DNA from: the human T2T-CHM13v2.0 reference genome, Homo sapiens
Length of the DNA: 64,000 nt
Direction: 5' to 3'
Assembly: GCA_009914755.4 (NCBI GenBank)
Contig: CP068257.2
Location: 39,520,001-39,584,000, forward strand
The position numbers and the translations under genes were made by a program. The notes under the pieces are model-generated. The model was given only the letters and a program-made list of their open reading frames with translations, had not been told where the DNA came from and searched no databases. This document shows positions 35,201 through 40,300 of the stretch, one piece after another. Each line of letters begins with the position of its first letter. Position 1 is the first letter of the stretch.

Positions 35201-36401
35201 TAGAAATCGATGGACTTTAGCTTGTCTAATTGTCCCCCCTGCCTTTAGTATCTAAAATAAAATAACCCTCGTTGCTTGCATTACTCAACGCATTTCTGCG
35301 TCTTGGCGTCTATGGCTAAACGAGTATTAATTAGACAGTCCGCAGAGAGCTGGCTGGGGATAGAAGGGGAGGTGGGGGAGAAGGGCAGGGATCACAGCAG
35401 GGTGGACTCGTGGCCCTGATTTGGGATCCTGACAGCAACTTACTAGGTGGCCTGAGGGCTGGGTGCCAGGGGAGGCAGCGGGTTCCAGTAGCATCTGACC
35501 TGCATTAGGGACAGGGGCGCGGCGGAGGGGGCGAAGGGGGCGGGGGTGGGGGGAAGGTGGCTGGGGTGAAGCCCAGCTTCGCAGCTAGCTGTGGGCAACA
35601 GAGGGAGTAAGGGGGGGCAATGAGGCTGGGGCCAGGCGCCAGCAGCAGCCACGCCCCCCACCTCCCCCGATTTTTAGGGAAAATTCTCCAAAGCTCTCGC
35701 ATCCTCCTCTGCCTCCTTCCACCCTCCACCCTCCCAGCCTCCACTGAGACCTCTTTAAAACCACCCAGGGGCCGCCGGGGGATGAGGCCGGGGAACGGGC
35801 TGGACTGAGGGCGGGGGCTCGGGGGCAGCGGACGGGAAACGCCTCGAAAGCAGCCAGACCCGGCGACTGAAATGAGGCGGAGGAGCTTGGCGAGGGGAGG
35901 CGCAGGCTCGGAAAGGCGCGCGAGGCTCCAGGCTCCTTCCCGATCCACCGCTCTCCTCGCTGACCTCCGAGTCACCCCCGGAAGCTCCCGCCACTGCCGG
36001 GCGAATAGACCCCCGCGGACCCCCAAGCGCGCGGGGCCGGGGCCCTAGTTCAGGCCCTCGCTGCCCCTTTAAGGGTTCTCGAAACTTTCCCCCCGGTATC
36101 AGATGAGCCTCGTCACATCCGTTGGCCGTGGCCGCTGGGGCGCTTTCCGAGGAAATTCGGGACTCGAGTTTCCCGGGGAAGAGGCGCGGCCTGAGCCCGG
36201 CGAGGGTGGGGAGGGCAGGCGCAGGTGGACCCCGGCGCCCCCCGAGCCCCGCTGTGACCTTGGCCGCGGGGGAGGGGCTGGGCCGCTGCGGGGCAGTCGC
36301 GGCCGCCAGAGGGGGCAGCGGAGAAGAACTTGCCCAACTTGGCGGCGCGGGCTGGGGCGGCTCTGCGCCTCCGCGCCCGCCTCCCCGGCCTCCGCCTTCT
36401 C

Positions 36402-36439
36402 CCCTCCCGCGAGCCTCCTCCCCTCCCGCGAGCCTCCTC
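36402..36439. repeat. 19-bp perfect tandem duplication inside the BACE2 5' UTR/promoter
   Basis: ccctcccgcgagcctcctc occurs twice in direct succession. Confidence 0.8.
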
Positions 36440-36595
36440 CCCTGGGCCCTCCTCCCGTCCTCCCCGCCGCCGCCGGTCCCGGTGCGCGCCCATCCCTGCC
36501 CGCAGCCCCGCGCGCCGGCCGAGTCGCTGAGCCGCGGCTGCCGGACGGGACGGGACCGGCTAGGCTGGGCGCGCCCCCCGGGCCCCGCCGTGGGC

Positions 36596-36907
36596 ATGGG
36601 CGCACTGGCCCGGGCGCTGCTGCTGCCTCTGCTGGCCCAGTGGCTCCTGCGCGCCGCCCCGGAGCTGGCCCCCGCGCCCTTCACGCTGCCCCTCCGGGTG
36701 GCCGCGGCCACGAACCGCGTAGTTGCGCCCACCCCGGGACCCGGGACCCCTGCCGAGCGCCACGCCGACGGCTTGGCGCTCGCCCTGGAGCCTGCCCTGG
36801 CGTCCCCCGCGGGCGCCGCCAACTTCTTGGCCATGGTAGACAACCTGCAGGGGGACTCTGGCCGCGGCTACTACCTGGAGATGCTGATCGGGACCCCCCC
36901 GCAGAAG
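36596..36907 (+). CDS. BACE2: BACE2 (beta-secretase 2 / memapsin-1) exon 1 coding part, residues 1-104: signal peptide and start of the propeptide. The 5' UTR lies upstream within the CpG island.
   Basis: ATG in good Kozak context (gccgtgggcATGg). The translation MGALARALLLPLLAQWLLRAAPELAPAPFTLPLRVAAATNRVVAPTPGPGTPAERHADGLALALEPALASPAGAANFLAMVDNLQGDSGRGYYLEMLIGTPPQK matches the known N-terminus of human BACE2 (recalled). The reading frame is closed by a canonical 5' splice site cagaag|gtaggg at 36907/36908, with phase 0 after the Lys104 codon. Confidence 0.92.
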
Positions 36908-37310
36908 GTAGGGACCCCCGGCTGCTGCCGCGGGCTTTTCGGGCTCGTTGGAGGGAGGGGGCTGTCCAGAGACGCCTCCACGCGGCTTAGCGTCGCCCCC
37001 AAAGCAGCAGCTGTCCCCGCACAGAAGAGCGGGGAACGCAGAGGGGCTCGGGTGGGCCGGGGAGCGGGGGCGCTCGCTCTTGAGTCGCGGAGGACGGCAG
37101 CCCCCGCCCGGGGCGCACTGAGGGGTGTGCGCGAGTGTTTCAGAACTTGTGAGCTCCCCCTCCGCGGGGCTGGGCGGGAGAGGAGACCTGGAACTTGCCG
37201 CCTCCAATAACGTGATTTCCTTCTTGCGGGCGACACCTACTTCCAGCGGGAGACGGAGCGGTGGGCCTTGGGCGACGGGCTATTATGGGGAAAATCACCT
37301 CGTGTTCATA

Positions 37311-37348
37311 CCCTCCCTCCCCCCCGCCCCCCCCCCACCCCACCACCA
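37311..37348. repeat. Poly-C / C-rich tract (G-rich on the minus strand) in proximal intron 1
   Basis: ccctccctcccccccgccccccccccaccccaccacc. Confidence 0.8.
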
Positions 37349-40300
37349 TGCTGTCTCATTGCTAAAGAGGCTCGTGGCCGGCTTCCAAAGGCGCAGTACC
37401 CTTTAAAAAGGATTTATGCATGAGCTCAGCTAAAAGCAACCCGGTTAAGAAGTGGCTCGCTTGCTGCTCTGAGGAAGGAGCAGCGTCTCCCCTGCGCCCG
37501 CTTTCCTTTCTCGGAGTTGGTTTGTCAGCTGTGTCCTCGCTCATCCGGCGGCCCTGCCCCTCTGCACGGAGCGATGCATCTACACGCGGGTGTGCAGAGT
37601 GTGAAAAGCATTCCAGCTACCGGGAAAAAAACAGGGGCTGAGTGAGGTGTCCGGGGACCAAGTGGTATCCCGATTACAACACAAAAATAAAATCAAACAG
37701 CTTTCCTTTTCTCTTACTCTGATGTTCATTTACTAACACTTTTTGTAGCAAGAAACAAATGTTCCCAAGCACAGTGATCTGAAAAAAAAAAAAAAAAAAT
37801 CCCAATTGATCTGCCCCCTCCTACTTTCAAACTGTCTAATCCAAGTGGGATTTGAAGTCCTTTGCTCAATTGAATGCACTATTTGAAGATAGTTTATTTT
37901 TATTTTTAACATTGTCATTTGGGTTTTGATTCAGCTATGATTCCCCCATAAATAGAACATACTCATGACTTTTGTATAATTCTCATTAAATTATTCAAGA
38001 CTTTAAGAGGAAAGACATGCCATGCTAATTCTTTTAAAAAAGGAAACTGCCGAATAACTTCTGTAGTTGTTTAATTAGTTTAGGGGGAAAAAAAAACCTT
38101 CAAAAGCGTATATTCAAACTTTGATTCTAGTTGCCTTTCGTCTAAGTCATGGGAAGCCACGTGAGTGATCTTTGCCATCTCCAGGAGTGGATGGTTAGAG
38201 GGAGGGAATAGGAATCCCCATCAGCTGAGGGAGCTTAACTTGGCTGTAAGATGTGGTCTTGGTGCAGCCAACACGTGGGAACATGTGCCTGGTGCTGAGA
38301 ACCTTGGAAATATGACAAGATATTGAGGAAGAACCTCTTCTGTGACCTGCAGAGAATCTTTTGGAACAGGCCTTGAATGAATCCCCATTGGACATGTGTG
38401 CTTTGATGCGAGGGAATTCTCTCTACTAAAAGTAAATGTGGGTGGTCTGAGGGCTATGATAAAAGAAGCCCTGAAACCCTCCCTCCAGAGCAAAGGGGAA
38501 AGGGAGAAGCCTGAAGAAGGACTAAAAAATACTTAACTTTGGCAATCAAAAAAAAAAAGCTTTTATAAATAATAACTTGCCTGTTAATTAATTCAATGAC
38601 CTTTATTTTAAAATGATGAGGTTTAATTAATTTAATTAACAGAAATGTATTGAGTACCTAGGCTCCTGTCTTTACCGTAGCCAAGGCAGTAGTTGGTTCA
38701 AGATTACTTCTCAACCATTAGCATGTTTCCAGGGAGCGCTGCTTCTACAGAGACAGATTTAATTTTTACATGTGATGGGGAATGAAATATCCTGTACCTC
38801 CCTCCTGGCTTGATTTAGCGATAAGCTGCTTTATAACCAAATCTTTCCAAATGCCTACTGTAAAGTCAGGCTTTCCTGACTACTGCATTAGGATTCACTA
38901 CCTGCCTGTGTTGCCCTGAAATGTCTCTGACCACCAGCAGGGTGTCAGCAGCCGGCTAGAGGGGGCAGCAGTGAGGTGACTTCTGAACCTGGAGTGAGCT
39001 TTCCTGCTCTATTAATGGCCAGGAGTCATGCATTTATTCTCTGCTGATTCTCTGAAGCCTAAAATAAAAATTGCTTAGGTGGAGAGAAAAATGGAATTGT
39101 AAATTCAAGCAATAAATAACCAAGAATTTTTCAAGAATTAAGTAATAGTCATAGACAATGTCTGAAAGCTCAGTACGTGACAAGCACTGCGCTCTGTGCT
39201 TTAGGTGTGCTTTCCCAGGAATCCCCACCCACCACCCACCACCCCTCGGGGGTCTTATACGCATTTGGGGGTGGGAAAACTGAAGCTCGGAGAGACTGAA
39301 TGACTTTCCAGGGCAACAGGGCAAGAAAGAGGGAGGGCCAAAAATGGAAGCCAGGGAGCTGAACTTCAGAAGCCAAGTTCTGAACCACCAGACAGATAAC
39401 GACTTCCTTCCCTTCATGCCTCCTGATCTCTTTGGTTTTGGCCTCAAACTACCCTTTCTAGCCAGAGAACCCTGAACGTACACCCCAAGGTGTTAGGGAC
39501 TTATTGTATGACTGCAACTGGACCCTCCGGAACTCCGTGCTGTTCCCCCATCTCCTCTTTCCTTCAGCACTGCTGAATGAGCAACAGAATGAAGGGCTGG
39601 ATCCAGGTGTGCACGGGAGAGGCCTTGAGAGGAGAGGTTCAACAGGAACCAGAGCCCTCCAGCTCCCCTTCTTTTATGGGAAAGTCAACTGTTGGAAGTG
39701 TGCTTGTTCCCCGAAGGCTTTAATCAGGAACTAGAGGTCCATTGTTTAAAGCCCAGTGACTCTGTGAGGAGTCACAGGCATGTGCCCGGAAGCCCGCCTG
39801 AGAGCTGCAAGGCGTGTGTGCTGGCAGGCAGGGCCACGTTGGCATGGAGATGACTGCCAGGTTTGCGGCTGATCCCATTATGTGGGTTCTTTCGAACTGT
39901 AGAACTTTTGAACAGTTCTTTCAACCAGCACCTGCTTGAACCGTGCAATTTGGTCTTATTAATAATAACACTCTTCTAAAGTAATTATAATTACAGCAAT
40001 TTCTATTATGAAAAAAGAGACTTTCATGTTAACACAATAACTCCAGCTGAAGACAGGAGAAGGTGTGCAGCCATATACCTTGTAGTAGCTTCAAAAAAAG
40101 CCTTTGGGATTCTTTTTCTGAAAGATTTTCTGTCATCTCCACTAACATAGGTAAAGCAGACAGCAAAACTATTCTCATACCTGAACACTTGAATGTAAAG
40201 GGCCACCTAATTATTTTGGCGAATCCTATTTTAATCATGGTGCATTCACTTGATTATCAGCCTCTTAGTACACAATTATTTGGAAGACTTGTATTGAAAA

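What the first reader, a model, noticed from the sequence alone, without database searches (positions are those of the whole stretch)
35450..37350. The window is the human BACE2 promoter, first exon and start of intron 1
The + strand ORF from 36596 encodes the exact BACE2 N-terminus (signal peptide MGALARALLLPLLAQWLLRA, then propeptide through ...YYLEMLIGTPPQK). It terminates at a consensus donor aag|gtaggg, and the whole segment lies in a TATA-less CpG island with many Sp1-type GC boxes. This anchors the interpretation of everything else: the upstream 36 kb is intergenic and the downstream 27 kb is intron 1. It also shows the window is vertebrate, so prokaryotic-system models do not apply.
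Basis: partly seen in the sequence, partly recalled or inferred. Interest (0 to 1): 0.5.

Follow-up and report, generated by a model that had tools for sequence, protein, structure and literature searches.

The report
Human BACE2 promoter and first exon

Summary
ATG 36596 opens 104 codons, 104/104 identical to residues 1-104 of PDB "Beta-secretase 2" (6uj0_A). BACE2 continues LQILVDTGSS, but the DNA continues gtaggg, so a phase-0 donor (AAG|GTAGGG) sits at 36907/36908. No other BACE2 exon is in the window. Mammal and bird orthologues are conserved up to ...GTPPQK and not beyond. The tamarin orthologous locus is 94.6% identical in the exon and about 86% in the flanks. The only CpG island in the window (35751-37700, GC 0.70, CpG o/e 0.82; elsewhere 0.22) covers the exon and has no TATA box. 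Nine Alu hits and exact matches to published human oligos (miR-3197, PLAC4, LINC00323) place the window in the human BACE2 neighbourhood.

Corrections:
- GC boxes are no more frequent than composition predicts (6 observed, 8.5 expected).
- From recalled annotation, the propeptide ends near residue 62, so the exon also encodes about 42 residues of mature enzyme.
- The island starts about 300 bp inside the stated segment.
- The flanks are not empty: LINC00323 (about 10-10.8 kb, minus strand) and MIR3197 (35896-35918) lie upstream, and PLAC4, in a retroviral gag remnant, lies antisense in intron 1 (about 52.3-53.4 kb).

Already known; low interest.

The parts
35751..37700 (.). CpG island spanning the BACE2 proximal promoter, 5'UTR, coding part of exon 1 and the first ~800 bp of intron 1
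   Evidence: GC 0.70, CpG o/e 0.82, 196 CpG. It is the only island in the window; the rest has o/e 0.22. No TATA box.
35962..36132 (+). Proximal (core) promoter, inferred. The 3' limit is the RefSeq transcription start as I recall it (about 244 bp downstream of the first base of the MIR3197 stem-loop), not measured here.
   Evidence: Position is inferred from recalled annotation. TATA-less. 85% identical to tamarin, no better than background; the 200-bp bins 36000-36399 reach 91-92%.
36133..36595 (+). 5' untranslated part of exon 1 (5' end recalled, 3' end shown)
   Evidence: No ATG between 36104 and 36595, so 36596 is the first AUG of such an mRNA. The start context gggcATGg has G at -3 and G at +4.
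36394..36443 (+). 19-bp tandem repeat (GCCTCCTCCCCTCCCGCGA, 2.6 copies) inside the 5'UTR
   Evidence: TRF score 93, 96% matches. One 19-bp copy is absent from the tamarin orthologue.
36596..36907 (+). Coding part of BACE2 exon 1: 104 codons covering the signal peptide, the propeptide and the first ~42 residues of the mature protease. It ends 5 residues before the first catalytic DTGS motif.
   Evidence: 104/104 identity to PDB 6uj0_A residues 1-104, E=8e-61. 94.6% nt identity to tamarin without gaps, against ~86% in the flanks. The start codon and C-terminal boundary are conserved in 13 orthologues.
36908..36913 (+). 5' splice donor of intron 1 (AAG|GTAGGG), intron phase 0
   Evidence: PWM 8.8 bits, top 1.6% of GTs. 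The tamarin has AAG|GTAAGC at the same place. Protein similarity stops here in read-through ORFs of other mammals, while spliced bird proteins continue with LNILVDTGSS.
36908..64000 (+). Start of BACE2 intron 1 (runs off the window)
   Evidence: tblastn with full-length BACE2 finds only residues 1-105 in the window; no exon 2.
35889..35961 (+). MIR3197 stem-loop (limits recalled); mature hsa-miR-3197 at 35896-35918
   Evidence: Exact 23-nt match to MIMAT0015082 as printed in PMC8352835. A hairpin is predicted, but it is no more stable than shuffles (z = -0.2) and is not conserved in tamarin (80.8%; 4 of 23 mature bases differ).

Best explanation
The segment is the 5' end of the human BACE2 gene (beta-secretase 2 / memapsin-1 / Asp1, chromosome 21q22). 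An unmethylated-type, TATA-less CpG island serves as the promoter. Transcription is inferred to start around 36.1 kb. The roughly 460-nt GC-rich leader contains no upstream AUG, so ribosomes would initiate at the first AUG (36596), which has a good Kozak context. The 312 coding bases of exon 1 specify three things: the ER signal peptide (about residues 1-20), the autocatalytically removed propeptide (about 21-62), and the first ~42 residues of the mature aspartyl protease. The exon ends in phase 0 after K104, and a U2-type GT donor (AAG|GTAGGG) joins it to exon 2, which lies beyond the window and carries the first catalytic DTGS motif.

Shown here: peptide identity, donor position, absence of exon 2, the CpG island, absence of TATA, orthologue conservation, and the human-specific neighbours. 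Inferred or recalled: the exact transcription start, the signal and propeptide cleavage sites, Sp1 dependence, and the chromosome coordinates.
For: The 104-aa translation is 100% identical to PDB 'Beta-secretase 2' 6uj0_A residues 1-104. BACE2 continues K104-LQILVDTGSS, whereas the DNA continues GTAGGG. tblastn of full-length BACE2 finds only exon 1 in the window. The donor scores in the top 1.6% of GTs. Thirteen orthologous sequences share the MGA start and are nearly invariant from N76 to Q103, then diverge at once in unspliced ORFs, or continue with LNILVDTGSS in spliced bird proteins. The tamarin chromosome (GCA_031835075.1) is collinear over 11.8 kb at 86.8% identity. There the exon is 94.6% identical with no gaps, and all 8 amino-acid changes fall in residues 37-74. 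The 5'UTR has no uATG and the start has a Kozak context. Human origin rests on 9 Alu HSPs and exact matches to about 235 nt of published human oligos: miR-3197, PLAC4 and LINC00323. These appear in the order and orientation I recall for chr21: LINC00323(-) - MIR3197(+) - BACE2(+) with PLAC4(-) in intron 1. The literature already describes this promoter: Sun et al. 2005 and Maloney et al. 2006 are listed in PMC3120711, and BACE2 is described as a 518-aa chr21 protein with an autocatalytically cleaved prodomain in PMC3299320.
Against: There was no direct alignment to GRCh38, because no human genome is among the tools. The transcription start is not measured; no CAGE or 5'RACE data are available. 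The exon alone does not reach any Pfam threshold. GC boxes are not enriched over composition, so Sp1 control is not supported by sequence statistics alone. The proximal promoter is no more conserved than neutral background in the human-tamarin comparison. Chimpanzee or another great ape is not formally excluded.
Confidence: 0.97

Rival explanations
1. The window is the BACE2 orthologue of a non-human great ape (for example chimpanzee) rather than human.
For: No tool here holds ape genomes, so identity to the human reference was not tested base by base. The protein N-terminus may be identical in apes. Exon 1 is highly conserved even in tamarin (94.6%).
Against: About 235 non-overlapping bases of human-derived oligos (miR-3197 23 nt, PLAC4 130 nt, LINC00323 82 nt) all match with zero mismatches. 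At roughly 1.2% human-chimpanzee divergence (general knowledge) about 3 mismatches would be expected, so the chance of none is about 0.06. The peptide is 104/104 identical to the human protein used for crystallography.
Confidence: 0.03
2. The match is a BACE2-derived processed pseudogene or a paralogue (BACE1) rather than the functional first exon.
For: None beyond the general possibility. The BACE1 chains also match residues 70-103.
Against: A processed copy would run on into exon-2 sequence (LQILVDTGSS), but similarity stops exactly at a GT donor and no further BACE2 sequence is in the window. The BACE1 matches are weak (E about 1e-6, residues 70-103 only) against E=8e-61 over 1-104 for BACE2. 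The locus is collinear with the tamarin BACE2 locus over 11.8 kb. It also carries the expected neighbours.
Confidence: 0.005
3. One of the other long ORFs in the segment (for example 362 aa on the minus strand at 35755-36843, or the 362-aa read-through ORF 36122-37210) is the real coding unit, as in a prokaryotic gene.
For: Thirteen ORFs of at least 60 aa overlap the 1.9-kb segment in all frames.
Against: At 72-76% GC, stop codons are rare, so long ORFs are expected by chance. Their translations are low-complexity G/P/R/A runs. Only the frame from 36596 has homologues, and in those homologues similarity ends at K104. The window has vertebrate CpG depletion and Alu elements.
Confidence: 0.005

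Closest known systems
Human BACE2 (beta-secretase 2, UniProt Q9Y5Z0; RefSeq NM_012104) exon 1 and its promoter, as characterised by Sun et al. 2005 (FASEB J 19:739) and Maloney et al. 2006 (J Mol Neurosci 29:81)
   Same: The encoded residues 1-104 are identical. The exon 1/intron 1 boundary falls after K104. The promoter is TATA-less and GC-rich. The chromosomal neighbours LINC00323, MIR3197 and PLAC4 are present.
   Different: No difference was detected. The published transcription start and the 268-bp basal promoter could not be mapped onto the window, because those papers are not held.
BACE1 promoter and first exon (chromosome 11)
   Same: Both are TATA-less, GC-rich promoters of paralogous type-I membrane aspartyl proteases (PMC2647160). 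The region just before the first catalytic motif is similar at the protein level (BACE2 residues 70-103, E about 1e-6).
   Different: The signal peptide and propeptide are unrelated in sequence; there is no match before residue 70. According to PMC3120711 the two BACE2 promoters share no similarity with the BACE1 promoter.
Generic vertebrate CpG-island housekeeping-type promoter
   Same: It meets the length, GC and CpG o/e criteria, lacks a TATA box, and spans the first exon into intron 1.
   Different: GC-box density is not above the composition expectation. A miRBase hairpin (MIR3197) sits in sense orientation just upstream.

Membership tests
Human BACE2 gene, exon 1 | Encodes BACE2 residues 1-104 exactly | tested here: met
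   104/104 identity to PDB 6uj0_A 'Beta-secretase 2', E=8e-61.
Human BACE2 gene, exon 1 | The coding sequence is interrupted by a GT donor where the mRNA continues with exon 2 (L105 QILVDTGSS) | tested here: met
   BACE2 sequence 103-112 is QKLQILVDTG. The DNA after K104 is GTAGGG. Donor PWM is 8.8 bits, top 1.6%. No exon 2 is in the window.
Human BACE2 gene, exon 1 | Orthologous conservation of the exon and its boundary | tested here: met
   Alignment A1: invariant L78-Q103 block, divergence directly after K104. The tamarin locus is collinear, with the exon at 94.6% against ~86% in the flanks.
Human BACE2 gene, exon 1 | Location on human chr21q22.2 between LINC00323/MIR3197 and PLAC4 | tested here: met
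   This is an indirect test. Published human oligos for LINC00323 (9984-10814, -), miR-3197 (35896-35918, +) and PLAC4 (52925-53326, -) all match exactly. Direct alignment to GRCh38 is not possible with these tools.
CpG-island, TATA-less RNA polymerase II promoter | At least 200 bp with GC of 0.5 or more and CpG observed/expected of 0.6 or more | tested here: met
   35751-37700: GC 0.70, o/e 0.82.
CpG-island, TATA-less RNA polymerase II promoter | No TATA box near the start site | tested here: met
   No TATAWAW or TATAAA in 35450-37350 on either strand.
CpG-island, TATA-less RNA polymerase II promoter | Sp1 GC boxes more frequent than composition predicts | tested here: not met
   GGGCGG: 6 observed against 8.5 +/- 2.8 expected. 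Extended Sp1 consensus: 0 against 1.0. The boxes exist but carry no statistical signal.
CpG-island, TATA-less RNA polymerase II promoter | Overlaps an experimentally mapped transcription start and is unmethylated | not testable with these tools
   No CAGE, 5'RACE or methylation data are available, and the primary promoter papers are not held.
Peptidase A1 (pepsin-like aspartyl protease, Pfam PF00026) | Asp domain with two D-T/S-G-S/T catalytic motifs | tested here: not met
   The 104-aa exon product alone hits no Pfam family. In full-length BACE2 the Asp domain spans 92-430. Only its first 13 residues are in this exon, and both catalytic motifs lie in exons outside the window. The gene is a member; this exon does not itself carry the defining motifs.
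Canonical microRNA gene (MIR3197) | Mature sequence present in a hairpin that is unusually stable and evolutionarily conserved | tested here: inconclusive
   The mature sequence matches exactly and a hairpin is predicted. However, its energy equals that of shuffles (z = -0.2). The stem-loop is less conserved in tamarin (80.8%) than background (86.5%), and 4 of 23 mature bases are changed.

The most novel reading that the evidence does not exclude
The miRBase entry MIR3197 lies in sense orientation about 170-240 bp upstream of the recalled BACE2 start site, inside the same CpG-island promoter. Its hairpin is neither unusually stable nor conserved. It could therefore be a promoter-associated small RNA made from upstream BACE2 initiation events rather than a true microRNA. 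It could conceivably act in cis on the BACE2 promoter, by analogy with the reported let-7c RNA activation of BACE2 (PMC11930103). Separately, the extra 19-bp repeat copy in the 5'UTR, which is absent in tamarin, could be a catarrhine- or human-lineage change that affects BACE2 expression.
Probability: 0.07. Interest if true: 0.3.

Novelty: already known. Interest (0 to 1): 0.04.

Why it matters
The result matters mainly as an anchor for reading the rest of the window. It shows the window is human chromosome 21 DNA around the 5' end of BACE2, so any 'prokaryotic system' reading of ORFs or repeats here should be dropped. BACE2 itself is medically relevant: it lies in the Down-syndrome region, it processes APP, and it has roles in pancreatic beta cells and in pigmentation. 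But its first exon and promoter were cloned and characterised about twenty years ago, and nothing found here departs from that picture.

Tried and rejected
- Rfam scan of the whole window at gathering thresholds: no hits, so no curated RNA family, and mir-3197 is not detected that way.
- The search for homologous proteins with the 104-aa peptide returned orthologue fragments (best: tamarin, 91%) but not the human protein itself. The identity test therefore had to rest on PDB sequences.
- Look-up of the rat protein P0011 in assemblies: not on record, so no rodent locus was available for promoter footprinting.
- The primary BACE2 promoter papers (Sun 2005; let-7c RNAa, Liu 2022) are not held. 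The only open paper with BACE2-promoter luciferase primers is about mouse. The published TSS and basal promoter therefore could not be mapped.
- GC-box enrichment test: rejected as a signal.
- Stability of the miR-3197 hairpin: no better than shuffles.
- Pfam on the 125-aa PLAC4-region ORF 53050-53427(-): no family even at E<=10, although the neighbouring ORF is clearly Gag_p30.
- Prokaryotic promoter/terminator scanning and defence-system libraries were not used, because the window is plainly vertebrate.
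Full report
**Observation.** An ATG lies at 36596, and the next 312 bases translate to MGALARALLLPLLAQWLLRA...GRGYYLEMLIGTPPQK, 104 residues. The reading frame is followed by gtaggg, so the junction reads AAG|GTAGGG at 36907/36908. I scored it with an approximate human donor matrix whose frequencies I recalled from memory. It scores 8.8 bits. That is the best GT anywhere in the read-through ORF and falls in the top 1.6% of the 3518 GT dinucleotides on this strand of the window.

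**Identity of the peptide.**
- A search of all PDB chain sequences gives 'Beta-secretase 2' (6uj0_A) with 104/104 identical residues over chain positions 1-104, E = 8e-61.
- BACE1 chains match only residues 70-103, at E about 1e-6.
It agreed over residues 1-460 except for one engineered residue. This shows that BACE2 continues ...PPQK-LQILVDTGSS.
- tblastn of that sequence against the window finds only residues 1-105, at 36596-36910. Exon 2 and the catalytic motifs are therefore not in the window.
- Pfam places the Asp domain of BACE2 at residues 92-430, and the 104-residue exon product alone hits nothing.

**Comparative test of the exon.**
- The peptide search in the large protein collection returned orthologous fragments from tamarin, rat, hedgehog, birds, reptiles and many unnamed mammalian contigs.
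- In an alignment of 13 of them with the window's read-through translation, all start with MG at the same position. The block L78-Q103 is almost invariant.
- Directly after K104, the unspliced ORFs read V-G (the GT donor) and then lose all similarity. Two spliced bird proteins instead continue LNILVDTGSSNFAVA. The exon boundary is thus conserved.
- The tamarin chromosome segment that encodes P0001 was fetched as L001. It is collinear with window 30669-42479 at 86.8% identity.
- In a global alignment of that segment, the coding part of exon 1 is 94.6% identical with no gaps, while every flanking class is 81-87%.
- Human-tamarin substitutions in the exon fall 5/4/8 on codon positions 1/2/3. All eight amino-acid changes lie in residues 37-74. 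None lie in residues 1-20 or 75-104.
- The tamarin has ATG and AAG|GTAAGC at the corresponding places.

**Promoter context.**
- By the usual criteria the window has one CpG island, 35751-37700 (1950 bp, GC 0.70, CpG observed/expected 0.82). The remaining 62 kb has o/e 0.22, the CpG depletion typical of vertebrate DNA.
- No TATA box (TATAWAW) occurs in 35450-37350 on either strand.
- There are seven GGGCGG/CCGCCC hexamers. Only two lie upstream of the probable start site; the others are in the 5'UTR, the coding sequence and the intron.
- Resampling with the same dinucleotide transitions gives 8.5 +/- 2.8 such hexamers in the island, against 6 observed. The longer Sp1 consensus gives 1.0 expected against 0 observed. 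'Many GC boxes' is therefore a consequence of composition, not independent evidence. That does not argue against Sp1 regulation, which I recall was shown experimentally by Sun et al. 2005.
- The only ATG on the + strand between 36051 and 36595 is at 36103. The start context is gggcATGg. If transcription starts near 36133, the leader has no upstream AUG and 36596 is the first AUG. That start position is my recollection of the RefSeq start relative to MIR3197 and was not tested here.
- In the human-tamarin comparison the promoter is not clearly more conserved than background: 85% for 35962-36132, and 91-92% for the 200-bp bins 36000-36399.

**Species and neighbourhood.**
- Nine Alu-consensus HSPs (73-89% identity) are spread over the window, so it is primate DNA.
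- The 23-nt mature hsa-miR-3197 sequence, as printed in PMC8352835, matches exactly at 35896-35918 on the + strand.
- Human PLAC4 assay oligos from the supplement of PMC2690655 all match exactly on the minus strand at 52925-53326. They comprise a 74-nt calibrator, qPCR primers and probe, and the rs8130833 genotyping primers.
- The base at the SNP position (53290, + strand) is A.
- Human LINC00323 (NR_024100.1) qPCR primers and two shRNA guides from PMC11720444 match exactly at 9984-10814. Their orientation implies a minus-strand transcript.
- The order LINC00323(-), MIR3197(+), BACE2(+) with PLAC4(-) inside intron 1 is the arrangement I recall for chr21q22.2. PMC3749326 lists BACE2, PLAC4 and C21orf130 (the old name of LINC00323, as I recall) in one LD block.
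- These oligos total about 235 non-overlapping bases without a mismatch. That makes a chimpanzee origin unlikely (about 3 mismatches expected) but does not formally exclude it.

**What the exon encodes.** PMC3299320 summarises BACE2 as a 518-residue chromosome-21 aspartyl protease whose N-terminal prodomain is removed, citing Hussain et al. 2001 for autocatalytic processing. As I recall the UniProt annotation and that paper, the signal peptide is residues 1-20 and the propeptide 21-62, with cleavage between L62 and A63. Consistent with this, crystallised mature constructs begin at A75 or L78. The exon encodes the signal peptide, the propeptide and roughly the first 42 residues of the mature enzyme, and it stops five residues before the first catalytic DTGS.

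**Other frames.** Thirteen ORFs of at least 60 aa overlap the 1.9-kb segment. At 72-76% GC this is expected because stop codons are scarce. Their products are G/P/R/A-rich low-complexity strings, and only the BACE2 frame has homologues.

- The upstream 36 kb has no protein-coding gene that I detected, but it is not featureless. It holds at least the 3' part of LINC00323 and the MIR3197 locus.
- The downstream 27 kb is indeed BACE2 intron 1, but it hosts the placenta-expressed PLAC4 transcript in antisense orientation.
- A minus-strand ORF about 275 bp downstream of the PLAC4 qPCR amplicon (52348-52650) hits Pfam Gag_p30 at 2.5e-14. PLAC4 therefore overlaps an endogenous-retrovirus gag remnant.

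**Known or new.** The BACE2 promoter has been cloned and analysed: Sun et al. 2005, Maloney et al. 2006 and Lahiri et al. 2006, all listed in PMC3120711. The gene structure is in every annotation. Nothing here departs from it, so the finding is correct, useful as an anchor for interpreting the window, and not novel.

**What led nowhere.**
- Rfam gave no hit at gathering thresholds.
- The rat locus could not be fetched.
- The primary promoter papers are not in the library.
- The 125-aa PLAC4-region ORF hits no Pfam family.
- The miR-3197 hairpin folds no better than shuffled sequence and is less conserved than its surroundings.

Noticed in passing
window 35889-35961 (+), mature 35896-35918: The hsa-miR-3197 mature sequence matches exactly just upstream of the BACE2 start region, inside the finding's coordinates. 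The predicted hairpin is no more stable than shuffles (z = -0.2). In tamarin it is less conserved (80.8%, 4 of 23 mature bases changed) than the neutral background (86.5%). It may be a promoter-associated small RNA rather than a real microRNA.
   Followed up: partly
window 36394-36443 (+): A 19-bp tandem repeat (GCCTCCTCCCCTCCCGCGA, 2.6 copies, 96% matches) lies in the BACE2 5'UTR. The tamarin orthologue lacks one copy, so the duplication arose after the split from New World monkeys. Whether it is polymorphic in humans is unknown.
   Followed up: partly
window 52925-53326 (-), SNP at 53290: Published human PLAC4 mRNA assay oligos match exactly on the minus strand inside BACE2 intron 1. These are the 74-nt calibrator, the primers and probe, and the rs8130833 genotyping primers. 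The window carries allele A (+ strand) at rs8130833. A 125-aa minus-strand ORF (53050-53427) spans the SNP.
   Followed up: yes
window 52348-52650 (-): A 100-aa ORF about 275 bp downstream of the PLAC4 qPCR amplicon hits Pfam Gag_p30 (gammaretroviral capsid) at E = 2.5e-14. PLAC4 therefore overlaps an endogenous-retrovirus gag remnant. The 125-aa ORF upstream looks like a matrix-protein remnant by eye but has no Pfam hit.
   Followed up: partly
window 9984-10814 (-): qPCR primers and two shRNA guide sequences for human lncRNA LINC00323 (NR_024100.1) match exactly. A minus-strand lncRNA exon therefore lies about 25.8-26.6 kb upstream of the BACE2 ATG, and the upstream flank is not purely intergenic.
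   Followed up: yes
window 47397-47904; also 17554-17865 and 18826-19248: Minisatellites: a G-rich 22-bp unit x24.9 copies in intron 1, which coincides with the GC-skew spike of 0.50 at 47-48 kb; a 64-bp unit x4.9; and a GT-rich 80-bp array, which lies at the start of the high GC skew seen at 18-23 kb.
   Followed up: no
L001 6001-6550 (tamarin, GCA_031835075.1 CM063186.1): The deposited Saguinus oedipus protein named 'Beta-secretase 2' (P0001, 172 aa) follows exon 1 and then continues into sequence matching the window's intron-1 read-through (...GGRG...TRLS.APK). It appears to be a mis-predicted gene model rather than a real isoform.
   Followed up: partly
window 35508-35568 (+): A G-run-rich block (GGGG...GGGGG...GGGGG...GGGGGG; TRF 20-bp period, 2.9 copies) lies just upstream of the CpG island. 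It is followed by a C-rich/CCCTCC block at 35640-35750. It could form a G-quadruplex; this was not analysed.
   Followed up: no
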